Position numbers and translations under genes: made by a program
IMG/VR virus record: IMGVR_UViG_3300021560_000029
Span: 1-40,552 of that record
DNA length: 40,552 bases
Strand: one strand, 5' to 3'
Source of the DNA: a virus
Lineage: Duplodnaviria > Caudoviricetes
Shown: in pieces, positions 3,991 through 32,235 of the stretch
How the letters are laid out: each line of letters begins with the position of its first letter
How positions within the stretch are numbered: the stretch's first letter is position 1
Notes under the pieces: model-generated
What the model saw: only the letters and a program-made list of their open reading frames with translations
Told to the model about the DNA's origin: nothing
The model's database searches: none

Positions 3991-4731
3991 ATGCCATCGC
4001 GTATTGATCTTACTGGAAAAATCTTCGGCCGCCTGACCGTGATCAGTCCCGATGCCGCCGGAGAAACACTTTTCTGGCGCTGCCTGTGTGAATGCGGAAA
4101 TCACAAAAGTATCAATGGCGCATCACTCAGGAGAGGGGCAACGGTCAGTTGCGGCTGCCGGATGCGCGAAACCGCCGATCAGACGAGTCATGGGAAATCA
4201 GGCACTAAAACTCATCACATCTGGAATCACATTAAACAGCGATGCGGCAATCCGAATAATCCGGCTTACAGAGATTACGGCGGTCGCGGCATTCGCGTCT
4301 GCCAGCGATGGATGGAATCTTTTCAGAACTTCCTCGACGACATGGGCGAATGTCCGCCCGGCCTGACGATTGATCGTTACCCGAATAATGACGGCGACTA
4401 TGAGCCCGGCAACTGCCGGTGGGCAACCATGAAAGAGCAATCCAATAACCGTCGTCACCGGCGTGATTTCCAGCCGATCACCTTCAATGGCGAAACAAAG
4501 CATATGGCCGCCTGGCTGCGCGACCCGCGAATTGCCGCCCTGGGTATCAGCGCAAGGACGCTGTCAGGCAGACTGTTTAATGGCTGGAGCGTGGAGCGCG
4601 CATTCACGACGCCGAAGCAGCAGCATGGTGAGTTTTGGGCCGATGTTCCCGCTGATAAGCGCAGGCTGAATGTCCGGAAGGCTGTTAAGGCGCATATCCG
4701 GAATGCTAAAGCCCGCCGAAGAAAAAAGTAA
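3991..4731 (+). CDS. Free-standing HNH-type homing endonuclease (antisense to structural operon)
   Basis: DLTGKIFGRLTV..WRCLCECG..SCGC N-domain, then W..IKQRC.NP..Y.DYGGRGI.VC.RW..SF.NFL.DMG..P.G.TIDR..NND..Y.P.NCRWAT. Confidence 0.85.
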   Translation: MPSRIDLTGKIFGRLTVISPDAAGETLFWRCLCECGNHKSINGASLRRGATVSCGCRMRETADQTSHGKSGTKTHHIWNHIKQRCGNPNNPAYRDYGGRGIRVCQRWMESFQNFLDDMGECPPGLTIDRYPNNDGDYEPGNCRWATMKEQSNNRRHRRDFQPITFNGETKHMAAWLRDPRIAALGISARTLSGRLFNGWSVERAFTTPKQQHGEFWADVPADKRRLNVRKAVKAHIRNAKARRRKK

Positions 4732-4988: not shown

Positions 4989-5335
4989 TCAGCGAAGTTA
5001 AAATCGATGGCCTCGTTGAACAGATTGCTGACCGTCCAGATATCGTCGGCGAGATCGGGGATGAGCCACCGCCGGGATGCCGCGTCATAGCATTTGACCG
5101 GCATGGTCTGCGCCGCCTGCGCCGCGCCGCCTGGCATCATTCCGTTAGGCGGCCCGCCCACCGGCTTCATACGGAAGCAGACGTCGAACATATACGCCTG
5201 CACGGTCGGGAATACCGACTCCTTGCGGAAGTCGCCGTTCTGGAACTGCCATACAATCCAGTTGCCCAGATCGGCGCGAACCCTGCCGATGCGGAACGTA
5301 TGGTCGCCGATTACAACGTCTTTCGTTTTCTCCAT
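4907..5335 (-). CDS. Tail assembly chaperone (G protein)
   Basis: Lies between tube and tape measure genes. Likely start MEKTKDVVIGDHTFRIG (ATG at 5335). Ends with NFADFF followed by the slippery site. Confidence 0.78.
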   Translation of the reverse strand: MEKTKDVVIGDHTFRIGRVRADLGNWIVWQFQNGDFRKESVFPTVQAYMFDVCFRMKPVGGPPNGMMPGGAAQAAQTMPVKCYDAASRRWLIPDLADDIWTVSNLFNEAIDFNFADFFRKLGTKKPQEGEALDTPQLPSLQA

Positions 5336-5381
5336 GATGATTTCGGTGATCCTTTTGAAAAAACCGGGATATGCTTCTGCG

Positions 5382-6056
5382 ATGGCGAATCCGCGCATCC
5401 CGCTGGATGGCAGGACATTCGGAAGGTTGATGGTTTTGTCTTATGAAGGCGGCTTGCGCTATCTATGCCGCTGCGTCTGCGGCACGGAGAAAATCGTGCC
5501 CGCCAAAAATCTGAAGACAGGGACGGCGATCAGTTGCGGCTGTTTCCGGGCCGAACTGCTGAAAGGCAATCAGCACGGCCTTAAACACGGCCACGGAAGC
5601 CGGAAGGACGGACGAGCCAAGTCCGTCATGATGGCCACCTATACGAGCATGAAGCAGCGGTGTTGCAACCCGCGCTGCAAAGGCTTCCCGTTTTACGGCG
5701 GCAGAGGCATAACCGTTTGTCAGCGATGGCTGGATTCCTTCGAGAACTTTCTCGCGGATATGGGCGAACGCCCGCCCGGTATGGAACTGGATCGCATCGA
5801 CAACAACGGGAACTACGAGCCTGACAATTGCCGGTGGGCTACCCGCCAGCAACAGCTTGCAAATCGCCGTCGCCCGGTCGATTCCATCGTGCTTACTTTC
5901 TGCGGCGAGAGTAAAACCCTGGCTGAGTGGTCACGCGATGAACAGACCGTGGCGAAAGGCCTGACCTACACCACGCTTCAAAGCCGGTTTCACATGGGCT
6001 GGTCGCATGGCCGAATCCTTACTGAACCGCCTGGACCACAAGGAAAGTATAAGTAG
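5382..6056 (+). CDS. Free-standing HNH-type homing endonuclease (paralog of 3991..4731)
   Basis: Likely start MANPRIPLDGRTFGRL at 5382. Motifs CRCVCG, SCGC, MKQRCCNP, YGGRGITVCQRW and LDRIDNNGNYEPDNCRWAT. Confidence 0.85.
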   Translation: MANPRIPLDGRTFGRLMVLSYEGGLRYLCRCVCGTEKIVPAKNLKTGTAISCGCFRAELLKGNQHGLKHGHGSRKDGRAKSVMMATYTSMKQRCCNPRCKGFPFYGGRGITVCQRWLDSFENFLADMGERPPGMELDRIDNNGNYEPDNCRWATRQQQLANRRRPVDSIVLTFCGESKTLAEWSRDEQTVAKGLTYTTLQSRFHMGWSHGRILTEPPGPQGKYK

Positions 6057-6534: not shown

Positions 6535-6569
6535 TTGTTTTCAATCCTTTCTATTGATATGATCGGGTG

Positions 6570-7472
6570 ATGCCACCACTCAAAGATTTGACCGGGATGA
6601 CCTTCGGTCGATGGACCGTTCTGCGCCCTGAAAAGGGCCGGATGCATTTATGCCGGTGCGAATGCGGAACCGAAAAGCTGATACAGTCCGGCTCTTTGCA
6701 GACCGGGAAATCTCAAAGCTGCGGCTGCCTAAACAGAGATGCTCATGTCGCGCGGCGCAAGGACATCACGGGCCGGGTATTCGGGCGATGGACCGTGCTT
6801 TCCTTTGCCGGGAGCGATGACGGCGCCTTATGGCTTTGCCGATGCGCCTGCGGCGCTGAAAAAATCATCAGGGCTACTCAGCTGGCCGCAGGGCTTACCA
6901 AAAGCTGCGGATGCCTTCGGGATGATGTGGCGAAAGTCTTTCACCTGAAGCATGGCCGATCACGAAATCGCGGCGCGCATGGCGCAGACCGTCGTGGAAG
7001 AAGCCGTGCATACAGGGCATGGGGCGACATGCTTCAGCGTTGTTCCAATCCGAATTTCCGGCAGTTCAAAGACTATGGTGGCCGGGGGATCACGGTCTGC
7101 GAAGAGTGGAAAAACTCATTTGAAAATTTTCTGCGGGACATGGGTGAACCGCCTGAAGGGCTGAGTCTGGACCGGATCGACAACGACGGTGGCTACAGTG
7201 CTGACAACTGCCGATGGGCGACACGCGCGCAACAGCAGCAAAACCGAAGACAAAAAGCCGCGACTCCAGCGAATCTCTCAATAAGCAGGTCATTTGAAGA
7301 CCTACAGATTGGCCGGAAGACTTTCGTCCGGGAAGTTATCACCGTCAACGGGCGAACGATGACCATCGAGGAATGGGCAGCGCGACTTCGCGTGCCGGTC
7401 ACTGTGGTTCGCAGAATGATTTCGCTGATGCCTGATAAAACGATCACCCCGGCGGACCGAGCCGCCGATTGA
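6570..7472 (+). CDS. Free-standing HNH-type homing endonuclease with duplicated N-terminal Cys domain
   Basis: Two copies of D(L/I)TG..FGRWTVL...CRC.CG.EK.I....L..G...SCGCL, then W.DMLQRCSNP..YGGRGITVCEEW..LDRIDNDGGY..DNCRWAT. Confidence 0.85.
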   Translation: MPPLKDLTGMTFGRWTVLRPEKGRMHLCRCECGTEKLIQSGSLQTGKSQSCGCLNRDAHVARRKDITGRVFGRWTVLSFAGSDDGALWLCRCACGAEKIIRATQLAAGLTKSCGCLRDDVAKVFHLKHGRSRNRGAHGADRRGRSRAYRAWGDMLQRCSNPNFRQFKDYGGRGITVCEEWKNSFENFLRDMGEPPEGLSLDRIDNDGGYSADNCRWATRAQQQQNRRQKAATPANLSISRSFEDLQIGRKTFVREVITVNGRTMTIEEWAARLRVPVTVVRRMISLMPDKTITPADRAAD

Positions 7473-21789: not shown

Positions 21790-22602
21790 TCACACAAACA
21801 AGCGGCCGTTTTCCTGTGCCCACTCATCGGGACGCTTCGTTGACTTTTTTCGATTGCATGTCGGGCAGAGAAGCTGTAGATTATCCGGGCCATTCGAACC
21901 GCCCTTACTGAGGGGCATGACGTGGTCCACATCGTAGGCGTCTCTGATGTTTTTTCGGCATGTCGCACACTTGCCGCCCTGCTTTGCGAACAGCGCCTTG
22001 ATGTCTTCATCAGTATGGGTTCCTTCGGCGGCGCGCCGCATGGCGCGTCTGCGCGTTACGCGGGCGCGATACGCTTCTGGATGCGCCTTGCGCCTTGCGC
22101 GGGCTTTTTCAGGATCATACGGATATGCTCCGGCAAGTCGTTTGGCTCTATGCCGAGCTTTGATTTTTTCAGCATTGCGACGGGCAGATTCCCTCTGTTG
22201 GCTGCGGACTTTGTCGGGATTTCGTTCTCGGCGGGCGCGGTGTCTCTCCAGAATCGCCGCGCGGTTTCGCGCATATACAGCCCGGCCGTCTTCGAGATTG
22301 CATTCTGTACATTGACCGTTGACCACGAACCGTGGAGCCAAATGCCCCCGTTTACATGGCCGACCGGTAGAATACTGAGACTCACCGGCCTCTCGCGCTA
22401 TCCGCTTTGCCTCTCTAATCGCGTTCGGCTTGTGTTTCTTCGTTTCCAGGAGGCAGGCGCAACAATTAGTGGTGGATACGTACCTCTCGCTGGTGTGCCC
22501 GGTTTTGCAGGGCCTGCCGGTGAAGTATCGTTTCAGCCCTTCGGCCCGCGCATTCTCGCGGCTTATGATTGGCCCTTCGTATGGGGTTATGCCTCGACGC
22601 AA
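21790..22602 (-). CDS. HNH endonuclease with duplicated N-terminal Zn-binding repeat
   Basis: Two A.E(A)G...Y(F/S)TGRPCK.GH...R(Y/F)V....C..C repeats, then Q.GKCA.C...YDVDHVMPLSKGGSN..DNLQLLCPTCN.KK. Confidence 0.88.
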   Translation of the reverse strand: MRRGITPYEGPIISRENARAEGLKRYFTGRPCKTGHTSERYVSTTNCCACLLETKKHKPNAIREAKRIAREAGESQYSTGRPCKRGHLAPRFVVNGQCTECNLEDGRAVYARNRAAILERHRARRERNPDKVRSQQRESARRNAEKIKARHRAKRLAGAYPYDPEKARARRKAHPEAYRARVTRRRAMRRAAEGTHTDEDIKALFAKQGGKCATCRKNIRDAYDVDHVMPLSKGGSNGPDNLQLLCPTCNRKKSTKRPDEWAQENGRLFV

Positions 22603-24809
22603 TGAGACAGCATATCTTCGGCGGTTGATGTGATCGCGCCATCCTGGTCATCAAGAAGTTCCATATAATCCGCCGCCGAATACTCTTTGATCCCGTCCAC
22701 GAACGGCTCCGGATACATCGTGAGGAACGCATCGCGCGCTTCCGCCGGGTCATTGAAGCCGAGGAATACCTTGTCCTCGTCCTCGCGTTTGTCTTTGTCC
22801 GGCCCAAGGTCGCGCATGCCGATGACGAACACGCGCTGCGAGTCCGGGTCCGGCCCGCAGATCACGTCGATTTCGTCGCCGTCCCGGCCGACCGTATTCC
22901 GGATGAAGCCGTAGTCAAAGAGCATTTTCTTGTCGTAGACCGTTTCGCCCCGGTCGTTGGTGATGCGCCGCCGCACGCCCTTCGGGTATTCGACCGTGAT
23001 CGGGAAGCCCGCGAATTCCCGGTCGTCCATCGCCATCGGGGACGCGGACGCGCCATCGGCCGCCGTCTGCCGTGGCCGCGTGCGGTGCTCGCCGCGTTCC
23101 TCCCCCTTCGGTTTCGGCTCGAACTGCCGCACGAGTTCTCTGGCCTGATGCTCGCCGCTCGCCTGCGTGGTGGGCGACTTCACATGCCCGGCGCGCTTGC
23201 CGCTCTCCTGCACCAGCCCTTTGTTTGCGGGCACGTCGAGCGGCCCGAGCGGCCCCATGAGCGGTTTCTTCGGCGGCACCAATTGCGGCCCGGTTTGTTT
23301 CGGTTGGCCCGGCGCGGCGCCTTCCTGCTGCTCCTGCCCCGGCATTTCCGTCATCGGCGGCCCGCCCATTTCGCCCGCCATATCCTGTTCTTTTTCCGCC
23401 TCGGCAATATCCTCATCGGTAATGTTCGTAAACATGCCGGTGGACTCCGAGGCGTTCTGCAATTCGCGCAGCGCCATCGCTTTGCTGTACAGGCCCGCAT
23501 TGAACAGCCCGAGCACGTTGTCCGAGATGGTCTTGCCGAGGTCGGCCTTTTCCTCTTCGGTCAGGACGCGGACCGAGGGGAAGATGAGGTTCATGTCGTC
23601 GGGCACTTCGCCCAACTCGCTCATCGCGATGATCGGATAGAGCTTTTCCAGTTGCGGCCGCAGCGCCGTATCCTGCTGGAGCGCGATTACTTCCTCGTAG
23701 ATGCGCTCGTCCTGATCGTTGGCCTGCCCGAGGCCCGAAATGGTGCGCCCGAATAAGCGCGTGACCGGGATGCGCGCGGCCCCGGCGATGTCCATCTGAA
23801 ACTGCTGATAAACATCGGCCGTCCCCGAGAACGCATACTGCGTCGAGGACATCCCGCCATCCTTGCCGGTAATGAGCAGCGACTGATTGCTCATCAGATC
23901 GTTCAGCGCCTGCATGCGCGACTGGTACGCCTGCAGCGCCTTGCCGGTCATATTCAGCCCGGACAGCGATTGCGCGAGTTCCGGGTCCTGGATGGAAATC
24001 AGGTTCATGCGGAACGTGGCCATCAGGATGTTCCACGACATGTTGTCGCGCTTGCGCACTTCCTCGAACGCAGGCTCGACCACGCTGATGCCCCACCACT
24101 GCTGCGCCTGGTATTCGGGCGAGGGAACGGCCGGGCCTGCGAACCGCAGAATCCGGCTGGCGTGCACGCGGAAGCCGGTGCCCCCCATGCCGCCGCTGCC
24201 ATCGGGCGAGGTGACGGTGTAGTATTCCGGCAGATTGAACGCCACCGGGCGCCTTACATCCGTGCACACATTGCCGTCCGGCACGATACCCGACCAGCGG
24301 TCGAACGGGATGATGCCCTGAAAAGACCCTAATTCGATATCGTGCGGATCGAGCGGCTCATCCAGTTGATGCTCCTGCCCGTCGACCACGATCAATGCCC
24401 CGCCCCCGCCGAACAGCCGCGCGTAGCACAGGGCTTCGAGCACCCTGGCTTTGGTCTGGGTGCGCCGGATCGCTTTGTCGATCTTCGTCGCATCCTCGGG
24501 CGGCATATCCGACGTGAGGCGCGGCCATGCGCGCGTCATGTCCTGCGCCGGGATGTCCACGATGGCCCGCGTGATCCAGTGATTGCGGTAAAGCGTGATG
24601 AGCAGGAGGTAGTTGTAGGAAAGCCGGACGAGGTCGTAATCGGTCGCCTCGACCAGTGAGTTCGTCCCCCACCCGGTGCGCGCGGCGGCGTTTACGAAGT
24701 AATCGACAGCCGACATGCGGCCCGATTCCCCGGCGGTCAAACCGAGCGATTGGGCAAGCCCGCGCGTGGAAGGATAGGACCGGCCCCGGCGGGCGTGAAG
24801 GGTATTCAT
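22587..24809 (-). CDS. Portal protein (DUF1073 type) fused to a C-terminal inorganic-pyrophosphatase-like (InPase) domain
   Basis: LYRNHWITRAIVDIPAQDMTRAW, ARLFGGG, RVHASRILRF, WWGISV and IAGAARIPVTRLFG. C-terminal ITVEYPKG..R..DYGFI..T.G.DGDEIDV.CGP..DEDKVFLGF. Start uncertain, between 24926 and 24809. Confidence 0.88.
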   Translation of the reverse strand: MNTLHARRGRSYPSTRGLAQSLGLTAGESGRMSAVDYFVNAAARTGWGTNSLVEATDYDLVRLSYNYLLLITLYRNHWITRAIVDIPAQDMTRAWPRLTSDMPPEDATKIDKAIRRTQTKARVLEALCYARLFGGGGALIVVDGQEHQLDEPLDPHDIELGSFQGIIPFDRWSGIVPDGNVCTDVRRPVAFNLPEYYTVTSPDGSGGMGGTGFRVHASRILRFAGPAVPSPEYQAQQWWGISVVEPAFEEVRKRDNMSWNILMATFRMNLISIQDPELAQSLSGLNMTGKALQAYQSRMQALNDLMSNQSLLITGKDGGMSSTQYAFSGTADVYQQFQMDIAGAARIPVTRLFGRTISGLGQANDQDERIYEEVIALQQDTALRPQLEKLYPIIAMSELGEVPDDMNLIFPSVRVLTEEEKADLGKTISDNVLGLFNAGLYSKAMALRELQNASESTGMFTNITDEDIAEAEKEQDMAGEMGGPPMTEMPGQEQQEGAAPGQPKQTGPQLVPPKKPLMGPLGPLDVPANKGLVQESGKRAGHVKSPTTQASGEHQARELVRQFEPKPKGEERGEHRTRPRQTAADGASASPMAMDDREFAGFPITVEYPKGVRRRITNDRGETVYDKKMLFDYGFIRNTVGRDGDEIDVICGPDPDSQRVFVIGMRDLGPDKDKREDEDKVFLGFNDPAEARDAFLTMYPEPFVDGIKEYSAADYMELLDDQDGAITSTAEDMLSHCVEA

Positions 24810-24839
24810 GGAAACGGATCGCGATGGGACAATAGCCTG

Positions 24840-25148
24840 ATGTGCGCTGTTTTGCTCCGGACCGGAGAACGAATAAGAGTGCGGCCCGTCATCGGGCGCA
24901 GTGTGTGCGGTGATCAGATCGGCCACGGCGCGTGGTCGGAAGGGACCGTCGCGCTGGCATCAAAAAACGGCAAGTCGGTCGCCGTCGATCTTGATGAAGG
25001 CGCTGCCCGCACCGGCGACGGCGGAATGTTCATCGGGCCGCTGCTGCTCATGGTGGACTACGAACAGGAAACGGTCCAGGACCTGCGCGGCGGCCAGTGG
25101 GAAATCGAAGTCGCCGGGCAACAGGCGACATACAGCCCAACCGATTGA
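24840..25148 (+). CDS. Hypothetical accessory protein
   Basis: ATG at 24840 lies 6 nt after TGG-GACAAT. The product is a beta-rich, plausible protein. Confidence 0.5.
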   Translation: MCAVLLRTGERIRVRPVIGRSVCGDQIGHGAWSEGTVALASKNGKSVAVDLDEGAARTGDGGMFIGPLLLMVDYEQETVQDLRGGQWEIEVAGQQATYSPTD

Positions 25149-25184
25149 TTAAGCTGGAGTCAGCCACCAGACCACCACCCGAAA

Positions 25185-25502
25185 ATGGACAACGAACTGA
25201 AGACTTATCTCGAACAGATGGAAGCGCGGATCGAAGCCCAGATGCAGGGCGTTGAGAACCGCATGGCGGCGCTTATGGCCTCTGAAATCGGCAGCCTGCA
25301 TTCCGACATGCAGACCATCGAACGGCGCATTCTCGACCGTCTCGACGCGCTCGACAGCCGCCTGAAACTTCAGGCCGGGCTGATCCAGATCGGAATGCGC
25401 GGAATGGTGCGCTTTTCCGAATTCGCGGAGGCTTCCGAATCCCGCTGGCTCGATCTCGTCAGCCGCGTCGAGGCGCTCGAAAAGAAGGTCAGCGCGGCAT
25501 GA
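25185..25502 (+). CDS. Small coiled-coil accessory protein
   Basis: MDNELKTYLEQMEARIE...RVEALEKK heptad pattern. ATGA overlap with the next gene. Confidence 0.72.
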   Translation: MDNELKTYLEQMEARIEAQMQGVENRMAALMASEIGSLHSDMQTIERRILDRLDALDSRLKLQAGLIQIGMRGMVRFSEFAEASESRWLDLVSRVEALEKKVSAA

Positions 25503-26113
25503 ACACCGACGCCTTCACAACAGCCGAAGCCGTCCACGGCATCGAGGCCGTCGTGGAAATGGCCCGCCGCACTCTGCGGGACCGCATCGCCGTCAATTCC
25601 TGCATCGCATACTGCCGGGTGATCCTGGAACTGCTCCGGTTCACCGGCATCGAGGCCAAACCGTACGCCTGCAAGCTGATCGTGACAGACCACACGCTCA
25701 ACAAGGCCTATGCGGTCGGCTGCACAGACGAAGAAATGAGCACGGCGCAGGAGATCATCCCTGTGAAGGGCACGGGCGCCGGATGGCGCGGCCATCTGAT
25801 CCTCATCGCGGAAGGCGACATTCTGATCGACCCGACATTCGAAGCGGCCTCGCGTGCGCTGTACGGCGAGGATGAGGACGACCCGGCGGGCTACATGGTG
25901 ATCGCGCTTCCGGAAACGCCCGGTCAGTTCTTCGACGCCACCATTTGCGGCAAGCTGGATAACGGCGCTGAGATCGAGATCCGCTACATCGGCACCGGCG
26001 ATGAGACGTGGCTGGAGTCCGAAGCGTGGAACGATGAGGCGCTGCCGGTGTTCGCCAATGCCCTGAACACCGCCGTTACTGAACTCGCACACGCTATGCG
26101 AGCAACGCAGTAG
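25499..26113 (+). CDS. Hypothetical protein with transglutaminase/papain-like Cys-His-Asp pattern
   Basis: NSCIAYCRVI...WRGHLILIAEGDILIDPT. Confidence 0.65.
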   Translation: MNTDAFTTAEAVHGIEAVVEMARRTLRDRIAVNSCIAYCRVILELLRFTGIEAKPYACKLIVTDHTLNKAYAVGCTDEEMSTAQEIIPVKGTGAGWRGHLILIAEGDILIDPTFEAASRALYGEDEDDPAGYMVIALPETPGQFFDATICGKLDNGAEIEIRYIGTGDETWLESEAWNDEALPVFANALNTAVTELAHAMRATQ

Positions 26114-26130
26114 CCTCTACTTCAATCCTG

Positions 26131-27542
26131 CCCGAAGCCAAAGCCTGTGATGCTGTGATGGCGCTGGCAACCCGCATCCTACGCCGGTATCACCCGAAGC
26201 TGAACACCAAAACCCGAAGCCACCTGCGTCGCGTAGCCGAAGCGAACCAGTGATGGCGCTGGCAACCCGGATCACCCGACGCGACCTTCGACGTTTTCAC
26301 CCGAAGCGAACTTCGGCGGTTTCACCCGAAGCGACATCTGGCCGGGAATCAAGCATAGAACACCGAGCGAAGGGACCTTCATCCGAAGCGGCATCTGGTG
26401 AGGATCTCCCGCCGAAGCGATTTCACCTTGAGAGCACATTCAAGAGCGCCGAAGCGAAACACCTTCTCGCAAACCCGAAGGGAGCGCATCTGAGCGGCAG
26501 TGGCCCGAAGCGTTTCCGTCCGCCCGCGCCCGAAGCGAAGCAAAATCGAGCCCCGAAGCGATGTGTTGATAGAGCTTCCCGAAGCAAGCCCGTAATGTTC
26601 GCCCGAAACGATCCTAAGGTAACAGCGGATCGCTCCCGAAGCTGCCGAAATCGTCCTGCCGCCGAAGCGCATGAATCACCGGACATCCGCAGGTGAGCGA
26701 TACCGAACCGATCTGTTCTCGTGCCGATGCGATTCGCCCGCCCGAAACGACTGCGGTAGTGGTGCCCGATGCGATGTAAGCCCAGTCACCGAGGCGACCC
26801 ACGGATAAGCGACCGTCCGTTGAGCCGAAGCGACTCCGGAGTTGAGGCCGAAGCGCCAACATTGATCTGCGCCGCCGAAACGAAGGCCCCCGATCCGAAT
26901 CTTCCTGACGCGACCGATGCGACTCCGGCATCCTGACGCCGAAGCGAGAATGTGGCTATCGCCGAAGCCGAAGCCTTGGGGTAGCGGGCGTCCCGAAACG
27001 ACGCATAGTTTCCGGCCACCATCTTCAGATGTCAAATGATCGCTTCTGCGGCTGCGGCCCGAAGGCCCATGTATCGCAAGACCCTTACGTGCAGCTTCGA
27101 TGCGAGCAACGGGTCGGCAAGCGTTCCCGCGCCTTGTGTCATCCTGGGCCTGTCGGTGGCCCGAATCCGAGTGTACAGCAAATCGCGACCGGCAGTGATC
27201 GCGTATCTCCCGACGCGATCCCTGATGTACCGCTGCGGCTAACCCGACGCGAGCAAATCATCTGGAACCCGACGCGACCCATCATCGCGTTCCTGCGGCC
27301 CGACGCGATCAGACGATTCCCCATCGCGATCCGCACAGGTGGATCTCCCGACGCGATCAAAACCCTCTCGCCGATGCGGCCATATCTCGATGTGTTCCCG
27401 ACGCGACCAGCGTCATGTCCACCTCCCCGACGCGATCCCTCTTTCGATGCCCCGACGAGATCAATTGTCTCACCCGACGCGATCATTCTCCGGTCAGCGG
27501 CTGTTCGGCTTCCGCCACCTCAGCATCCGTCCCCGACGCGAT
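26131..27542. repeat. Array of ~40-45 direct CCGANGCGA repeats with variable spacers
   Basis: Motif starts at e.g. 26194, 26214, 26237, 26276, 26301, 26326, 26383, 26412, 26449 ... 26993, then 27210, 27244, 27269, 27300, 27348, 27398, 27427, 27474 and 27533. Nearly all on one strand, mostly 20-30 nt apart. Confidence 0.9.
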
Positions 27543-27719
27543 CAGCCTGAATTCCACCTGCGCGGCGTTGGCTTTCTCCGCGATCTTCGACCGCAGCATG
27601 AACCACGGGAATCCCGGCGCGAACGCCTGTACGGCGTCGTCGTATTCGATGACCGCGAACTTGCGGCGCGTGGCGTAGCCCAGCAGCATCATCGAGACTT
27701 CATGCGTGATCGAACTCAT
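27483..27719 (-). CDS. Small hypothetical protein coupled to the ParB-like gene
   Basis: ATGA overlap with the ParB-like stop. 78 aa. Confidence 0.5.
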   Translation of the reverse strand: MSSITHEVSMMLLGYATRRKFAVIEYDDAVQAFAPGFPWFMLRSKIAEKANAAQVEFRLIASGTDAEVAEAEQPLTGE

Positions 27720-28510
27720 GCGGTCCCGATTTCATCCCGCTGCGCCTGCGACTTGCGCGGCATGATTTCCGCGTACTCGAAAATGCGGTCCTTGCGCGGC
27801 AGCATGGGCGAGGCGGTTTCTTCCATGAACTGATACAACCGGTCCCGTTCCGCTTCATCCGGCAGGCGGTTCATCAGACGACGCAGCTTTTCCACATCGG
27901 CCTGAAGCCAGTCATCCGTTTGCAGCCATTGAAAACGCCCGGCCAGTTCGACGTGCTGCTCGGCCCGCTCCACGGTTCTGACCGACACCCCGACAGCTTC
28001 GGCGACAGCCCGTTCGGATGCCGGTGCTGTGGGTCGCCCGCCCTTCGTTCTCTTCTGATCCGGTTTCTCGGCACTACGCCGCAAAACCTCCCGCGCCTTT
28101 TTCGCGCTTTCGGCGACCTGCGCCGAAGCTCGGAACCTCTTGCGCCGTTCGGCCGCCGTCAGGCTCTTGCGGTTCTCGTTCTCTTCGAGTTCGATGTCCC
28201 GTCGTTCCTCTTCGGTCAGCGTGTCCAGCAGGCTGGCGGCGATGGTCTTCCATCGGAGGAGCCGGGCCGCCTTCAGGCGCCGAAAGCCCGCGATCAGTTT
28301 GTAAGGGCCGCTCCGTTTCTCACGGTCTACTATGATCGGCTGCAACAGCCCAACCCGCTTCAGTCCGAAGGCGAGCGTGGAAAGATCACCGGCGTCTGAC
28401 CGGCGACGTTCGCCGATCTCAATGGAGTTCAGGGGGATGTCAATAGTTTTCATGACTGGTATGGGTGATGGTTCTTCGTCTTCGTCGTCCTGCGGCAGGT
28501 CGTCATACAT
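27716..28510 (-). CDS. ParB/Srx-like N-terminal domain protein with HTH
   Basis: IPLNSIEIGERRR, GLLQPIIV, LIAGFRRLKAA (GxxR box), ELEENENRKSLT and HTH SERAVAEAVGVSVRTVER. Start at 28510 or 28453. Confidence 0.85.
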   Translation of the reverse strand: MYDDLPQDDEDEEPSPIPVMKTIDIPLNSIEIGERRRSDAGDLSTLAFGLKRVGLLQPIIVDREKRSGPYKLIAGFRRLKAARLLRWKTIAASLLDTLTEEERRDIELEENENRKSLTAAERRKRFRASAQVAESAKKAREVLRRSAEKPDQKRTKGGRPTAPASERAVAEAVGVSVRTVERAEQHVELAGRFQWLQTDDWLQADVEKLRRLMNRLPDEAERDRLYQFMEETASPMLPRKDRIFEYAEIMPRKSQAQRDEIGTA

Positions 28511-28659
28511 TTGGGCTGCCCTGCAAAGATTTGGCGCAGGTGTTTGCAGGCCTTTAACGCTTTGGTTTGATGAACCTGAATCCGGCCAGCGCCAGCAGCG
28601 CAAACAGGGCGATCAGCAGTCCGGGCAATAATCCGTCACGCATGGGAGATAATCCCGGC

Positions 28660-28857
28660 ATGCTCCATCGGCTTACGAATACGCTCTGGATTAATCCGGA
28701 TCAGATCGCCTGCGTCGAACTCACGAAAGATCCCGCAGGCGGCGAAGCGACCGCCAGCCGCCTCTGGTTTCTGGGCCGCGCCGATCCGGTGCTTCTGGGC
28801 GGGCAGGAAACCGCAAACCTGCTGGCGCTTATTGGTGGTGGTGGGGCGCCGAGCTAA
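28660..28857 (+). CDS. Small hypothetical protein
   Basis: MLHRLTNTLWINPDQIACVE... ATG lies 6 nt after GATAAT. Confidence 0.55.
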   Translation: MLHRLTNTLWINPDQIACVELTKDPAGGEATASRLWFLGRADPVLLGGQETANLLALIGGGGAPS

Positions 28858-29182
28858 CGGCCGCTTTCGGCGGTGGTGGCGGCGGGTGCGGAAGACTGCG
28901 GGCCGCAAGGTCGACCGCTGCCACTTTCGCGTCGCGGATCAGCGAGTATGATTTGCCGCCGACTACGCCGTAGACCTTCATCCCGCTCATCCCGTAGTCT
29001 TCCTCGACCTGAGCGACCTGCTTCTCGCCGATCATGGCGTTGTGCACCATGCCCCGGCCGAGATGCCCGGCCTGCCGTATCCAGCTGACCTTCGATCTGA
29101 CGGCTGATGGCGTCAGCGGCTCCGGTTCCGGCTTCGCCTGCGGTTTCGCCTGCGGTTTTGTTTCGTGCGTTTCGTGCTGCAT
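28829..29182 (-). CDS. Hypothetical protein
   Basis: AGGAG RBS upstream, plausible composition. Confidence 0.55.
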   Translation of the reverse strand: MQHETHETKPQAKPQAKPEPEPLTPSAVRSKVSWIRQAGHLGRGMVHNAMIGEKQVAQVEEDYGMSGMKVYGVVGGKSYSLIRDAKVAAVDLAARSLPHPPPPPPKAAVSSAPHHHQ

Positions 29183-29190
29183 TGCTTCTC

Positions 29191-29592
29191 CTACTGCGGC
29201 AGATTGCCGCCGCCGCCCGCGCTGCCGCTGCCATCGTCGCCGCTGCCGAAGCTGTCGATGGTCACTGGACCGATGGTGAACGTTGTGCCCGCGTTGTTTG
29301 CGAACGTGCCGCCGAGGTTGGTGATGCCGCCGTCACCGGCCTGCGCGACGGTGTAGCCGCCCGCGTCGTTATACCCGATCCCGCACGAGCCGTAAATCCA
29401 CGGCGTCGCGGGCAGGGGCGCATACCGGTAAGGAACCAGATGCGGATATACCGGCGGGTAATAGTGGTGATGGTGTACCTCCCGTGGTGAAAGCGCGACA
29501 CACTCGCAGTGTTTCAGTTCCGGAGAGCATCCCCGCTTGCAGATCGGGCAGATCCATCCCTTTTTCTCGTCCTTCTTCTTCGCGTCCTTCAT
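29191..29592 (-). CDS. Hypothetical protein with N-terminal Zn ribbon
   Basis: GGAGG RBS before MKDAKKK, and GWICPICKRGCSP..KHC.C. Confidence 0.55.
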   Translation of the reverse strand: MKDAKKKDEKKGWICPICKRGCSPELKHCECVALSPREVHHHHYYPPVYPHLVPYRYAPLPATPWIYGSCGIGYNDAGGYTVAQAGDGGITNLGGTFANNAGTTFTIGPVTIDSFGSGDDGSGSAGGGGNLPQ

Positions 29593-29602
29593 ACTAACCT
29601 CC

Positions 29603-29914
29603 ATGAGCGGGTTCAGACGCCCGAAGCCGCCATCAGCGGCATTCTGGGCAAAGCAGTCGCGGCAGTTCACCGCGCTTCATGAAAAGCACGGCAAGCCACA
29701 GGTCCACGTCCGGAAAACGGAGAACGGGCGCTGGCAGTTGTACGGCGACGAACTGACGCCGGATCTCATTACGGATCTCAACCGGATGCATGCGAAGTGC
29801 GCGCGCGCCTGCGGCTTCGCCGGATCGGATGAGGACGCGGCTCAGTACTGGCTGAACCGGATCTACGCGAGCAAGCTGCGCGGGTCCGACGCCACCGCCA
29901 CGAGGTTGATGTGA
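29603..29914 (+). CDS. Hypothetical protein
   Basis: ATG at 29603 lies 7 nt after CATACT. GTGA overlap with the next gene. Confidence 0.5.
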   Translation: MSGFRRPKPPSAAFWAKQSRQFTALHEKHGKPQVHVRKTENGRWQLYGDELTPDLITDLNRMHAKCARACGFAGSDEDAAQYWLNRIYASKLRGSDATATRLM

Positions 29915-30144
29915 CGCCCGAAGATCCGCAGATTGCCTTCGGCGGCGATGACGACGACGATGAACGGCAGATCGACCTGATACTGCTCGCCATGCTGCGC
30001 GTGCTGCTCGTGCTCGTCGCGCTGGCCTCGATGTGGGTGTACTGGCTGGTGAACCGCGATACGCGCCCGGTTTATATTCCCGAAGGCTTACAATCGGCGC
30101 ATGCCACGCAAACTACCACACACCCGGATTCTGCGCCCGAATGA
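29911..30144 (+). CDS. Small single-pass membrane protein
   Basis: Acidic N-terminus followed by hydrophobic LILLAMLRVLLVLVALASMWVYWLV. Confidence 0.55.
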   Translation: MTPEDPQIAFGGDDDDDERQIDLILLAMLRVLLVLVALASMWVYWLVNRDTRPVYIPEGLQSAHATQTTTHPDSAPE

Positions 30145-30538
30145 ATGCTTCAGTTGCGGCAGGCCGCAAATGCCGGAAGGTCCGGGCCTGTTTGTCTGCT
30201 ATTGCGGCTGCTACATGATGGCGGATGTGCTGGAGGATCAGTCTTTCCTCCTGCGCAACCTCACCCATGCCGAAGGACGAGCATTGCAGGATCGCGTCCG
30301 CCGCCGTCTGCCGCTGGTCAAAGGCCAGCCAAAGCGCGTTTACAAAATCGCTCTGGGAAAAGAATTTCTGGACTGCCCGGATGCATTCGTCAGTACGGAC
30401 GGCGGCCGGACATTCCACCTCACGATAGCGGAGTTCGATGAGCGCGAAAAAGCCTTCCTGCGCCGTCAGGCGGCACGGGGAAGGAACCGCCGCTCGAAGG
30501 TAGCCCGCGTCATGCGGGTAATTGAACCGCCCGAGTAG
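30101..30538 (+). CDS. Hypothetical Zn-ribbon protein
   Basis: CFSCG...FVCYCGC. Continues the + strand cluster. Confidence 0.5.
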   Translation: MPRKLPHTRILRPNECFSCGRPQMPEGPGLFVCYCGCYMMADVLEDQSFLLRNLTHAEGRALQDRVRRRLPLVKGQPKRVYKIALGKEFLDCPDAFVSTDGGRTFHLTIAEFDEREKAFLRRQAARGRNRRSKVARVMRVIEPPE

Positions 30539-32235
30539 ACTTCTGCGGGCCACCGCACTTCATCGAGCGAAACGAGCGGCAAGGCAAGGCACCGGCAATT
30601 GCGTGATATGATGCCTGCCGATGTTACTGCATACCATCCGTCGTTGGTTTCCATCGTAAAGACATGGCCGCCCGACGATTTACAGACGCTTTTCTGTGTC
30701 ACGCGAATCAACGCCTGGTCGCCGGAGAATCCCTGCGCGATATCGCCGCCAGTGAAAGATGCGGGGCCGGTCACCTTTCCAATGCGCTCGCCAAAGCCGG
30801 ACTCCGCAGTAAGCAGGCGTTCGGCGCGGGAATGCGGCATATCATCGATCCGGCTGAACTTCGGCGGCTCTATCTCGATGACCGATGGAGCGAGCAAAGA
30901 ATCGCGCTGCATTTCGGAATACAGCGAGCAGTGGTGCGGAAAAATCTCATCGCCAACAACATCATGCCGCGAAACGGGTCCGAAGCCAATCGCATCCGGA
31001 TGGAGCGTCTGACCGCAGATGAACGCCGTCATCTGATCGGCAATGCGCGACAGATACGAACCGAACATCTGCAACGCGACGCCCGCTATAAGACCCCTAA
31101 TCCCGCCATCGGTCCCGGCGAGCATGAGATCGCCGAAGCCATGAACCGGCGCGGAATGACATTCGAGCGTCAGGTCATCTGCGATGGATACCTGATCGAT
31201 TTCGTCACGGATCACATCGCCGTGGAAATCAGCGCCAAATCGGCGGAGCGCAATATTCTGGTGGTCACGGGCCAGCGCCGCAAACATCTCCTCGAACGTG
31301 GATATTCCATCGCTCATGTCTGGCTCTACAGCGGAGCGCCCGGTATTCAGCAGGCGGACAAGATCGCAGCCTATATCGAGCGAGCCCGCAGCGCGCCACC
31401 CGTTCGCGGTCAGTATTGGGTGATTCGGTGTGGCCGTAAAACTGACGCCACCTTCGACATCGATACGGATGAGATCACCGCTGTAAGGTGCACGCCAGAG
31501 CGTCTTGACGCCTGACCGACTGAATGCTTCAACATCGCCGGTGAAACAGTTCCAGATCTCCCCCGGAGCGTATCGGCCAACCGGCCGCTCATGTACCAGC
31601 GCTTCCGGCGATGGCGGGTCGTTCCATGCCACCAGCACGTTGTGCATACGACGGTGCGACGGCCGCACGCGCTGATCGTGCGACGTTTCCCACTGATACC
31701 AAGGGATGTCGAGGCGTTCCGAACGCGCCCGCGTCATGGCGGTTTCGGCCTTTGAAACCTCCGTGCGCGCGATGAGCTTAATCCGCGAGGCCGCAAGGCG
31801 TGGGGCGCGCCGCCTCAGTTCGGCTTCGATTTCCCCGGCCCGCATTCCCTTCTGCTGCGCCCGCGCCGCAAACGCCGTGATCTGCTCGGCGACCGCCGTG
31901 GGGATCGATGTGATCAGCTGCGCGTTGTCGTTGACGATCTGGTCGATGACGTCGCCCGCCCCGGTGCGCCGCAGTTCCGTCCGCAGGTGCCGGTAGATTT
32001 CGCGGGACCGCGTGCCGCGCATCGCCGCCTCGCGCCACGACCGGGCGTTGATGCCCACGACCGACATCACCATGTCCCGCGCCGCAGCCCCGGCCGCCCG
32101 CGTGAATGCCGGGCTGTCGCCGATCTCCGCCAGCCGTGCGGGCGTCAGGCGGCCATAGCGCCGGAAGATTCCCATGATCGCCCGCTGGTAGGCGTTTATC
32201 ATCCGGCCCCACGGCGGGGGCGTTGAACGCGGCAT
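30466..32235 (-). CDS. MuF/SPP1 gp7-like minor head protein, intein-containing
   Basis: LITSIP, IARTEVSKA, YQWETSHDQRVRPSH and PGEIWN|CRC. The conserved N-C-R-C motif is split by an intein. Confidence 0.9.
   Translation of the reverse strand: MPRSTPPPWGRMINAYQRAIMGIFRRYGRLTPARLAEIGDSPAFTRAAGAAARDMVMSVVGINARSWREAAMRGTRSREIYRHLRTELRRTGAGDVIDQIVNDNAQLITSIPTAVAEQITAFAARAQQKGMRAGEIEAELRRRAPRLAASRIKLIARTEVSKAETAMTRARSERLDIPWYQWETSHDQRVRPSHRRMHNVLVAWNDPPSPEALVHERPVGRYAPGEIWNCFTGDVEAFSRSGVKTLWRAPYSGDLIRIDVEGGVSFTATPNHPILTANGWRAAGSLDIGCDLVRLLNTGRSAVEPDMSDGISTFEEMFAALARDHQNIALRRFGADFHGDVIRDEIDQVSIADDLTLECHSAPVHGFGDLMLAGTDGGIRGLIAGVALQMFGSYLSRIADQMTAFICGQTLHPDAIGFGPVSRHDVVGDEIFPHHCSLYSEMQRDSLLAPSVIEIEPPKFSRIDDMPHSRAERLLTAESGFGERIGKVTGPASFTGGDIAQGFSGDQALIRVTQKSVCKSSGGHVFTMETNDGWYAVTSAGIISRNCRCLALPLVSLDEVRWPAEVYSGGSITRMTRATFERRFLPRAA
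30598..31548 (-). mobile_element. Intein (317 aa) in the MuF gene
   Basis: Block A CFTGD after EIWN, block B TPNHPILT..GW..AG.L..G, block F/G HVFTMETNDGWY...GIISRN, followed by +1 Cys (CRC). Confidence 0.88.
30664..31515 (+). CDS. HTH plus Vsr/DUF559-like endonuclease encoded antisense inside the intein
   Basis: Two HTH-like segments (GESLRDIAA.., LRRLYLDDRWSEQRIALHFGIQRAVVRKNL), then GEHEIAEAMNRRGMTFERQVICDGYLIDF...IAVEI...RRKHLLERGYSIAHVW. Confidence 0.78.
   Translation: MAARRFTDAFLCHANQRLVAGESLRDIAASERCGAGHLSNALAKAGLRSKQAFGAGMRHIIDPAELRRLYLDDRWSEQRIALHFGIQRAVVRKNLIANNIMPRNGSEANRIRMERLTADERRHLIGNARQIRTEHLQRDARYKTPNPAIGPGEHEIAEAMNRRGMTFERQVICDGYLIDFVTDHIAVEISAKSAERNILVVTGQRRKHLLERGYSIAHVWLYSGAPGIQQADKIAAYIERARSAPPVRGQYWVIRCGRKTDATFDIDTDEITAVRCTPERLDA

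What the first reader, a model, noticed from the sequence alone, without database searches (positions are those of the whole stretch)
30598..31548. Intein whose homing endonuclease is encoded on the opposite strand
Seen: a 317-aa intein (CFTGD...TPNHP...IISRN|C) splits the conserved NCRC motif of MuF. Its central region, where a LAGLIDADG or HNH domain normally sits, has no nuclease motifs and reads like antisense 'shadow' sequence. The + strand carries a 283-codon ORF (30664..31515) lying entirely within the intein in codon-to-codon antisense register. That ORF has two HTH-like segments and a Vsr/DUF559-like nuclease pattern (E..I...L......ERQ....Y.IDF.....AVEI...L..RGY....VW). Established: intein endonucleases are normally in-frame parts of the intein. 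Inference: an endonuclease gene inserted backwards into a mini-intein and was tolerated because this antisense frame rarely contains stops in GC-rich genes (it needs TTA, CTA or TCA). This gives ~850 bp of dual coding and a nuclease transcribed independently of the late gene.
Basis: partly seen in the sequence, partly recalled or inferred. Interest (0 to 1): 0.88.

Follow-up and report, generated by a model that had tools for sequence, protein, structure and literature searches.

The report
Intein with antisense Vsr-like homing nuclease
A self-splicing protein insert (intein) in a phage head-assembly gene carries a predicted DNA-cutting gene on the opposite strand, a layout already described in a 2025 preprint, and here the reverse reading of the nuclease's core likely also forms part of the intein's own splicing fold.

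Summary
Confirmed. A 317-aa intein (30598-31548, -) splits MuF at N|CRC, and a 283-codon ORF (30664-31515, +) lies inside it codon against codon. Length alone proves little, because antisense runs of 281-421 codons occur elsewhere in this window. The ORF is nonetheless a real gene. All 76 non-redundant complete family inteins examined keep it in the same register, and selection flips strands between the intein ends and the insert. It folds as two HTHs plus a Vsr/I-Bth0305I-like nuclease (pLDDT 84; Z 10.8). Near-identical relatives have the site filled or empty.

The layout is known: Gosselin et al. (bioRxiv 2025) describe antisense VSR-like intein endonucleases, and this scan has 118 earlier notes with these keywords.

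One point I did not find in print. These inteins lack about 25-30 residues between blocks A and B. Intein residues 81-122, the reverse reading of the nuclease core, are constrained in both frames, survive in all 7 shortened relatives, and dock on the splicing domain in a model (0.73 versus 0.00 for controls). The intein's closing codons also spell a likely -10 box for the nuclease gene.

Splicing, expression and cleavage are untested. The EDxHD His and second Asp are absent.

The parts
30466..32235 (-). MuF / SPP1 gp7-like head morphogenesis gene, 589 aa with the intein (N-extein 31549-32235, C-extein 30466-30597)
   Evidence: PF04233 E 1.8e-13; phrog_15127 and phrog_324
30598..31548 (-). Intein, 317 aa: Cys1, block B TPNH (40-43), block F HVFTM (295-299), terminal Asn317, then Cys+1; penultimate residue Arg rather than His
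   Evidence: PF14890 matched by 62 of 64 family members; profile matches solved inteins; empty alleles read N|CRC
31345..31548 (-). N-terminal splicing region (intein residues 1-68); about 25-30 residues shorter between block A and block B than other inteins; conserved in the intein frame
   Evidence: profile positions 25-68 align to Mtu RecA mini-intein 55-98; offset of 24 against the Lennon MuF intein; block-B Thr at 39-41 in 76 of 76
31183..31308 (-). Intein residues 81-122 (ISTFEEMF...FHGD...IDQV): reverse reading of the nuclease core, constrained in both frames and predicted to complete the splicing fold
   Evidence: codon freezing; kept in shortened inteins; model: score 0.73, best control 0.00
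31216..31227 (.). Twelve bases read as FHGD (intein 108-111) on - and as IAVE (nuclease 185-188, including invariant E188) on +; nuclease wobble positions are frozen
   Evidence: GAA 75/76, GTG 68/70, GCC 74/75, GTC 52/54
30598..30726 (-). C-terminal splicing region (intein residues 275-317)
   Evidence: conserved in the intein frame
30664..31515 (+). Antisense endonuclease gene, 283 aa; its start codon is the reverse complement of the block-F His codon
   Evidence: block-F His is CAT in 57 of 62 His codons against 153 of 377 in exteins
30685..30954 (+). Two tandem helix-turn-helix domains (residues 8-44 and 63-97), likely DNA binding
   Evidence: model helices with pLDDT above 90; HTH Pfam families in up to 22 of 62 members; 2lvs E 1.3e-8
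31096..31395 (+). Vsr / I-Bth0305I / DUF559-like nuclease domain (residues 145-244) with invariant E153, Q170, D179, E188; no EDxHD His or second Asp
   Evidence: 3r3p Z 10.8 (rmsd 3.3, 94 aligned), 1cw0 Z 9.5, 3hrl Z 9.1
30604..30612 (+). Extended -10-like box TG-a-TATGAT, written by the intein's last codons (Ile ATC, Ile ATA, Ser TCA); candidate promoter of the nuclease gene, 51 nt before its ATG
   Evidence: same position at least 5/6 to TATAAT in 35 of 76; rare ATA at this Ile in 32 of 47 against 209 of 1016 in exteins, and 10 of 218 Ile codons in eight long minus-strand ORFs of the window; not found by the -35/-10 scan

Best explanation
This is an intein in a phage MuF head gene whose predicted homing endonuclease (two HTHs plus a Vsr-like nuclease) is a separate gene on the opposite strand, and the two genes are likely interlocked, with the intein's end codons supplying the nuclease's start codon and likely promoter and the nuclease's reverse reading predicted to supply part of the splicing fold. 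Mechanism step by step. (1) The late transcript makes MuF with the intein; the intein would splice out by the class-1 route and restore N|CRC (motifs shown, splicing inferred). (2) An antisense transcript, likely from the -10 box in the intein's last codons, is translated from the ATG that mirrors block-F His (conservation shown, expression inferred). (3) The nuclease would cut intein-free MuF alleles of co-infecting or resident related phages near the N|CRC codons, and repair would copy the element in (fold and filled/empty alleles shown, cleavage inferred). (4) Selection acts on both strands. The insert evolves for the nuclease but avoids TTA/CTA/TCA codons, the ends evolve for the intein, and residues 81-122 evolve for both (shown statistically). 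(5) The intein lacks about 25-30 residues between blocks A and B, and residues 81-122 likely fill that place (shortfall shown, docking predicted).
For: Same layout and register in 85 of 85 loci with callable intein ends among 93 fetched, 76 non-redundant, with antisense runs of 234-366 codons. Selection flips between strands. In close pairs (10 pairs, at least 70% nt identity), changes silent only in the intein or only in the nuclease are 68:15 in intein 1-68, 44:164 in 149-280 and 22:10 in 281-317. Window against all: the nuclease frame is better conserved in 75 of 75 pairs over 149-280 and in 0 of 75 over 1-68. The result is the same whichever frame is aligned. Conserved insert residues have free wobble positions. 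Model pLDDT 83.8; the best matches among 48,161 chains are I-Bth0305I, Vsr and NGO0050. Start codon bias: CAT 57:5. SD-like motif in 48 of 60. -10 box. Mobility: of 80 extein-found loci 65 are empty, 11 filled and 4 unresolved; L187 (filled) and L194 (empty) are 99.6% identical over 1.7 kb up to the site; the three filled lineages need 3 changes on the extein tree. The same Gordonia site holds different inteins in Angelicage, Sedona and Lennon. Interlock. Fragment model score 0.73, best of 3 controls 0.00; that mark was reached by 116 of 157 solved complexes and 2 of 215 mismatched pairs; runs agree in at least 75% of contacts; partner pLDDT 51-55. Pieces of one domain can pass by likeness to solved inteins.
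Against: No splicing, expression or cleavage data. The window's copy has no SD-like motif before the ATG and has Ser at E+2, where 20 of 76 members, including its nearest relative L014, have Lys. The EDxHD His and second Asp are absent, so catalysis rests on fold and four invariant residues. Foldseek gave no match at E <= 0.001. Segment 72-128 shows no sequence similarity to the corresponding region of normal inteins. FHGD itself is not among the confident contacts of the model. The loci were chosen by similarity to the query (best 80 of 564), and they are related, so P-values are inflated. Filled and empty neighbours could also arise by precise loss or recombination.
Confidence: 0.75

Rival explanations
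1. An antisense homing endonuclease simply nested in the insert of an ordinary intein, as the first reader and the preprint picture it; the intein-frame insert is a passive spacer, and the frozen FHGD codons reflect a DNA- or RNA-level signal, not intein protein structure.
For: FHGD is spelled by almost one nucleotide string, so codon freezing alone cannot separate protein from nucleic-acid constraint. No sequence likeness of the segment to normal inteins. FHGD is not among the confident model contacts. The preprint's predicted inteins showed no recognisable structure in the insert.
Against: About 25-30 residues are missing between blocks A and B, whereas the Lennon intein at the same site, with an antisense LAGLIDADG gene, has them and lacks FHGD. 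All 7 shortened inteins keep the segment. L141, whose antisense frame has stops and no start, keeps FHGD with a synonymous TTC>TTT change that destroys E188. Helix 81-92 and strand 116-122 dock on blocks A and F in the model.
Confidence: 0.15
2. The family is real, but this copy's nuclease is silent or dead, and the ORF stays open only because antisense stops are rare in a GC-rich gene.
For: No SD-like motif; Ser at E+2 and no His or Asp downstream; only about 1.4 opposing stops expected, and long antisense runs are common in the window; broken copies exist in the family (L110, L176, L141).
Against: ATG, extended -10 with a rare ATA codon, all four invariant residues and both HTHs are retained. 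The window's nuclease frame is better conserved than its intein frame in 75 of 75 comparisons over 149-280. Ser at E+2 occurs in 7 of 76 members.
Confidence: 0.07
3. The antisense protein is a DNA-binding regulator or has another phage function, not homing.
For: The EDxHD catalytic His and second Asp are missing; Vsr-like folds also occur in non-homing proteins (RAP/FASTK, Bax1).
Against: It was found only inside inteins in the loci examined; acidic residues are invariant; the intein is patchily distributed, with near-identical filled and empty alleles, and the intein frame has no other nuclease.
Confidence: 0.03

Closest known systems
Full inteins with an anti-sense VSR-like homing endonuclease in actinobacteriophages (Gosselin, Arsenault, Gogarten; bioRxiv 10.1101/2025.01.02.630785; read: abstract, passages, first part of Results, sections 15 and 28; supplements closed)
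   Same: Full intein, endonuclease on the opposite strand, long helical N-terminal part, Vsr match over the C-terminal half (their 1CW0 Z 10.6 at residues 144-267; here Z 9.5 at 144-257), likeness to 3R3P. They report that minor-capsid (IPR006528) inteins carry only non-canonical endonucleases. The window's protein hits MuF inteins of Gordonia phages Angelicage, Fosterous, Affeca, Vivi2 and Malisha on the opposite strand.
   Different: Here the family extends far beyond actinophages (99 phage records; hundreds of IMG/VR stretches). [quoted passage not shown] Start codon, promoter and per-strand selection are not treated in the main-text parts I read. I could not see their table to confirm which hosts carry their VSR-like cases.
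EDxHD homing endonucleases, prototype I-Bth0305I (Taylor et al. 2011, PMC3239194, passages read; Dassa et al. 2009, PMC2677866, passages read)
   Same: N-terminal DNA-binding repeats plus a C-terminal Vsr-like nuclease; 3r3p is the best structural match (Z 10.8); associated with self-splicing elements of phages.
   Different: HTH repeats instead of NUMOD repeats; no His general base or second Asp in this copy; encoded antisense and overlapping, not free-standing or intron-borne.
Antisense LAGLIDADG inteins of Gordonia minor-capsid genes, and the out-of-frame endonuclease of the cyanobacterial dnaX intein (Phillips et al., 10.64898/2026.09.14.751524, abstract and section 17 read; Gorbalenya 1998 only as cited there and in the Gosselin preprint)
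   Same: Endonuclease in a frame other than the intein's, with frame-specific selection. The Lennon intein occupies the same MuF N|CRC site in the same codon register.
   Different: Different nuclease family; the Lennon intein has a normal-length region between blocks A and B and no FHGD segment.
Canonical class-1 inteins with an in-frame LAGLIDADG or HNH domain (recalled; e.g. Mtu RecA intein)
   Same: Cys1, block B TxxH, terminal Asn, Cys+1; profile match to 2in0 and others.
   Different: No in-frame nuclease; about 30 residues fewer before block B; penultimate Arg; block-F position usually Asp is Thr or Asn.

Membership tests
Class-1 intein | In-frame insertion at a conserved site, absent from homologues | tested here: met
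   65 of 80 extein-found loci are empty at N|CRC, 11 filled, 4 unresolved
Class-1 intein | Cys/Ser at position 1, block B TxxH, terminal Asn, Cys/Ser/Thr at +1 (motif definitions recalled) | tested here: met
   C1, T40-P-N-H43, N317, C+1; invariant or nearly so in 64 members
Class-1 intein | Penultimate His (usual but not universal; recalled) | tested here: not met
   Arg in the window; His in 43 of 76 members
Class-1 intein | Complete Hint fold in the usual sequence order | tested here: inconclusive
   About 25-30 residues short between blocks A and B; a fragment model docks residues 81-122 on blocks A and F; the whole intein was not folded
Class-1 intein | Self-splicing | not testable with these tools
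   needs a splicing assay
Inteins with anti-sense VSR-like endonuclease (Gosselin et al.) | Full, uninterrupted intein with no in-frame nuclease | tested here: met
   no LAGLIDADG, HNH or other nuclease family in 64 members at E <= 0.1
Inteins with anti-sense VSR-like endonuclease (Gosselin et al.) | Opposite-strand ORF with a Vsr-like fold and a long helical N-terminal part | tested here: met
Inteins with anti-sense VSR-like endonuclease (Gosselin et al.) | Homology to the preprint's listed members | tested here: inconclusive
   Gordonia phage MuF inteins are homologous (E down to 1e-20), but the preprint's supplementary table could not be read
EDxHD homing endonucleases | Vsr-like catalytic fold with the metal-binding Asp | tested here: met
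   3r3p Z 10.8; D179 invariant in 76 of 76; its equivalence to D196 is inferred from the 3hrl alignment
EDxHD homing endonucleases | His general base (H213) and neighbouring Asp (D222) | tested here: not met
   No His between E188 and R205 and no Asp between 188 and 231 in the window's protein; Asp at E+2 in 0 of 76, His within E+1..E+8 in 32 of 76
EDxHD homing endonucleases | Cleaves the intein-free allele near the insertion site | not testable with these tools
   needs a cleavage assay

The most novel reading that the evidence does not exclude
The antisense reading of the nuclease's catalytic core has been recruited into the intein's splicing fold, replacing about 25-30 residues lost between blocks A and B. 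One stretch of DNA then encodes a nuclease active site on one strand and a needed piece of the splicing domain on the other, while the intein's C-terminal motifs write the nuclease's start codon, ribosome site and promoter. That would be a rearranged Hint fold born by antisense overprinting, and a lock-in that stops this intein from ever shedding the nuclease-derived DNA.
Probability: 0.5. Interest if true: 0.7.

Novelty: new member of a known kind. Interest (0 to 1): 0.42.

Why it matters
The headline layout is already in print, so this copy adds a member, not a kind. It does show that the family is common outside actinophages and is missed by annotation: none of the 12 annotated phage records fetched lists the antisense gene. 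If the interlock holds, this is a rare natural case of two folded, unrelated domains on opposite strands of the same codons, with a known direction of origin (the nuclease has outside relatives; the intein segment has none found). It would make overprinting of a structural element directly testable, and it would show that the Hint fold can be completed by a segment placed after block B.

Tried and rejected
ORF length as evidence: rejected, since long antisense runs are common in this window. GC-richness as the reason for tolerance: rejected at family level. Conserved YWVIRC and P245 at the nuclease's C-terminus as nuclease motifs: rejected; they mirror intein blocks (wobble entropy 0), and the tail has pLDDT under 50. 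Single-sequence fold failed (pLDDT 42). Foldseek gave nothing at E <= 0.001, though 3r3p, 3hrl and Vsr appear in weaker rows. Protein-database search with the antisense ORF found only 1 protein, as expected if gene callers skip it; single-protein viral scan found none. Segment 72-128 against PDB sequences: no intein; the only low E-value came from a repeat protein. The segment against the Lennon intein's first 45 residues: no match. The sigma-70 -35/-10 scan found 0 sites. No RNA holder listed; the one DNA run may be the window's source, agrees with the assembly and shows no empty allele. Literature searches for the rearranged fold or overprinting returned 0 papers; some searches found only the preprints named. 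Scan notes contained no 'FHGD' and nothing on a rearranged fold. Rows dropped: 8 of 93 loci without callable intein ends and 9 duplicates; unresolved and identical rows were left out of the extein tree.
Full report
Observation. The window is a 40.5-kb linear virus record, estimated 53% complete, with portal, major head, tail sheath and terminase genes on the minus strand. The MuF gene 30466-32235(-) (PF04233, E 1.8e-13) holds a 317-aa stop-free segment at 30598-31548 that begins with Cys, has TPNH at 40-43 and ends in Asn before CRC. The + strand carries a 283-aa ORF at 30664-31515. Its ATG is the reverse complement of intein His295 and its stop faces intein codon 12. The only sequencing run found agrees with the assembly but may be its source. 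Length is no evidence by itself: other long genes of this 62% G+C window have register-0 antisense runs of up to 421 codons.

Family. tblastn of the antisense protein against 50,697 phage records gave 99 records. The 12 I fetched all had the match opposite a MuF-type gene with an intein, in the same register, and unannotated. A scan of viral contigs with the intein alignment confirmed 564 stretches and kept the best 80. Of 93 loci (12 phage records, the window, 80 contigs), 85 had callable intein ends and all 85 had an antisense ORF in register 0. After removing 9 duplicates, 76 remained, with open runs of 234-366 codons. The intein has 2,870 representatives at E <= 0.001 in the 50%-identity library; I did not check their DNA. 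These loci were chosen by similarity to the query, which favours carriers.

Selection. In 10 close pairs, codon changes silent only in the intein or only in the nuclease were 68:15 over intein residues 1-68, 27:55 over 69-148, 44:164 over 149-280 and 22:10 over 281-317. Across window-versus-all pairs the nuclease frame was the better conserved in 0 of 75, 61 of 75, 75 of 75 and 1 of 75. Aligning on the other frame gave nearly the same numbers. Conserved nuclease residues in the insert use all synonymous codons (for example G213, G164, G150, A108, about 1.9 bits). Family exteins range from 29% to 73% G+C. Extein codon usage predicts about 434 TTA/CTA/TCA codons in the nuclease inserts of 74 loci and there are none. 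Zero follows from taking intact inteins, which is the point: selection, not base composition, keeps the intein frame open. For the window alone the expectation is 1.4.

Protein. With a 62-row alignment the antisense protein folds at pLDDT 83.8: two HTHs (8-44, 63-97), long helices (105-141), an alpha/beta domain (145-244) and a disordered tail. The best structural matches among 48,161 chains are I-Bth0305I (Z 10.8, rmsd 3.3, 94 aligned), Vsr (9.5) and NGO0050 (9.1). Foldseek gave nothing at E <= 0.001. The profile matches 3hrl at E 4.2e-6 and 3r3p at 0.009. E153, Q170, D179 and E188 are invariant in 62 of 62. Taylor et al. (PMC3239194, passages) define EDxHD by a metal-binding Asp, a His general base and a neighbouring Asp. 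The window's protein has neither the His nor the second Asp. In the family E+2 is never Asp; it is Lys in 20 of 76 and Ser in 7 of 76, including the window. So it works like an EDxHD enzyme by fold and context but is not a strict member, and its activity is inferred. The intein frame matched no nuclease family in any of 64 members.

Expression signals. The block-F His codon is CAT (antisense ATG) in 57 of 62, against 153 of 377 His codons in exteins. The block-F Leu is CTC/CTT (antisense GAG/AAG) in 52 of 64, against 590 of 1,656, although some N-terminal Leu columns are also CTY-rich. An SD-like 4-mer precedes the start in 48 of 60, but not in the window. The intein's last codons spell a -10 box (at least 5/6 to TATAAT) at one fixed place in 35 of 76. 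The Ile there is the rare ATA in 32 of 47, against 209 of 1,016. The window has TG-a-TATGAT at 30604-30612. An earlier scan note (e1-6472602) suggested this test. The loci are related, so significance is overstated. No RNA data were available.

Mobility. Searching with the N-extein gave 80 loci: 65 empty at N|CRC, 11 filled (three lineages, one being the window itself) and 4 unresolved. The filled lineages need 3 changes on the extein tree, which could also be one gain and losses. L187 (filled) and L194 (empty) are 99.6% identical over 1,695 nt up to the site and 86% over 123 nt after it. One Gordonia site holds three different inteins in Angelicage, Sedona and Lennon. This fits homing but does not prove it.

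Block-B Thr lies at 39-41 in 76 of 76. Profile positions 25-68 align with Mtu RecA mini-intein 55-98, and the offset to the Lennon intein is 24, so about 25-30 residues are missing after block A. Four consecutive nuclease codons (185-188) have frozen wobble positions (GTC 52/54, GCC 74/75, GTG 68/70, GAA 75/76), which fixes FHGD in the intein frame. T84, F85, F89 and D118 also show intein-type conservation. All 7 distinct shortened inteins found (166-197 aa: P0023, P0082, P0117, P0154, L141, L155, L159) keep the segment and delete what follows. L155 and L159 still have an open antisense frame, so they are weaker evidence. L141 has antisense stops, no start, and a synonymous TTC>TTT that destroys E188, yet keeps FHGD. 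The Lennon intein, with an antisense LAGLIDADG gene, has normal spacing and no FHGD. A three-fragment model docks residues 81-92 and 116-122 on residues 2-20 and 295-310. The score is 0.73 against a best control of 0.00; that mark was reached by 116 of 157 solved complexes and 2 of 215 mismatched pairs; the runs agree in at least 75% of contacts; partner pLDDT is 51-55. The model supports this and does not show it, and pieces of one domain may pass by likeness to solved inteins. Against it: no sequence similarity to the missing region, and FHGD is not among the confident contacts, so its role (turn, catalytic helper or nucleic-acid signal) is unexplained.

Prior art. Gosselin, Arsenault and Gogarten (10.1101/2025.01.02.630785; abstract, passages, first part of Results, sections 15 and 28) report LAGLIDADG and VSR-like endonucleases on the anti-sense strand of full phage inteins. 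They find only non-canonical endonucleases in minor-capsid inteins, a Vsr match over residues 144-267 and a likeness to 3R3P, and they propose invasion by a free-standing endonuclease. [quoted passage not shown] Their supplements were closed and may bear on both membership and the fold claim. Phillips et al. (10.64898/2026.09.14.751524; abstract and section 17) show frame-specific selection for an out-of-frame intein endonuclease. Dassa et al. (PMC2677866; passages) describe Vsr-like genes between split-intein halves. This scan holds 118 findings with the same keywords in at least 106 genomes. Searches for a rearranged fold or overprinting found nothing.

Verdict. Real, under selection on both strands, and a new member of a described kind. 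The added value is the evidence that the overlap reaches into the splicing fold itself, which I put at even odds. Interest 0.42.

Noticed in passing
window 3991-4731(+), 5094-6056(+), 6567-7472(+): Three free-standing HNH endonuclease genes of one family (phrog_374, E 1e-60 to 1e-88) lie on the + strand among the tail genes, against the late-gene direction.
   Followed up: no
window 21790-22602(-): Endonuclease VII/HNH-like gene directly after the portal gene (phrog_1035, E 6e-33).
   Followed up: no
window 22587-24926(-): The 779-aa portal ORF has a C-terminal extension (about residues 600-770) that matches phrog_4660 'minor head protein' and domains of DarB-like and large virion proteins.
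   Followed up: no
window 24960-30465: About 5.5 kb of small ORFs and a ParB-like gene (27716-28603) separate MuF from the portal gene; + strand ORFs at 29911-30144 and 30101-30538 converge on MuF, the last overlapping its 3' end, so read-through could also reach the antisense nuclease. Convergent small genes also sit there in L003 and L006.
   Followed up: no
L180 (Corynebacterium phage phi673) 1410-2057(+): The helicase intein holds a same-strand, out-of-frame ORF with a full DUF559/EDxHD-type motif (VEVDGGSH...D.RRD), not annotated in the record.
   Followed up: partly
L179 (Gordonia phage Lennon) 1277-2359(-): MuF intein with an antisense LAGLIDADG-like ORF, also codon against codon, at the same N|CRC site; used as a control.
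   Followed up: partly
L155 1462-2034, L159 1387-1935: Shortened inteins (191 and 183 aa) whose antisense ORF is still open from ATG and keeps one HTH plus Q-D-E but has lost the E153 helix.
   Followed up: partly
P0154, P0020, P0059, P0066, P0088: The family also occurs at other sites: P0154's flanks are not MuF-like (they resemble a uracil-DNA glycosylase-type protein, from recall), and several large proteins hold two family inteins.
   Followed up: no
L252 about 1301-1700: MuF allele reading N-DRC instead of N-CRC at the insertion site.
   Followed up: no
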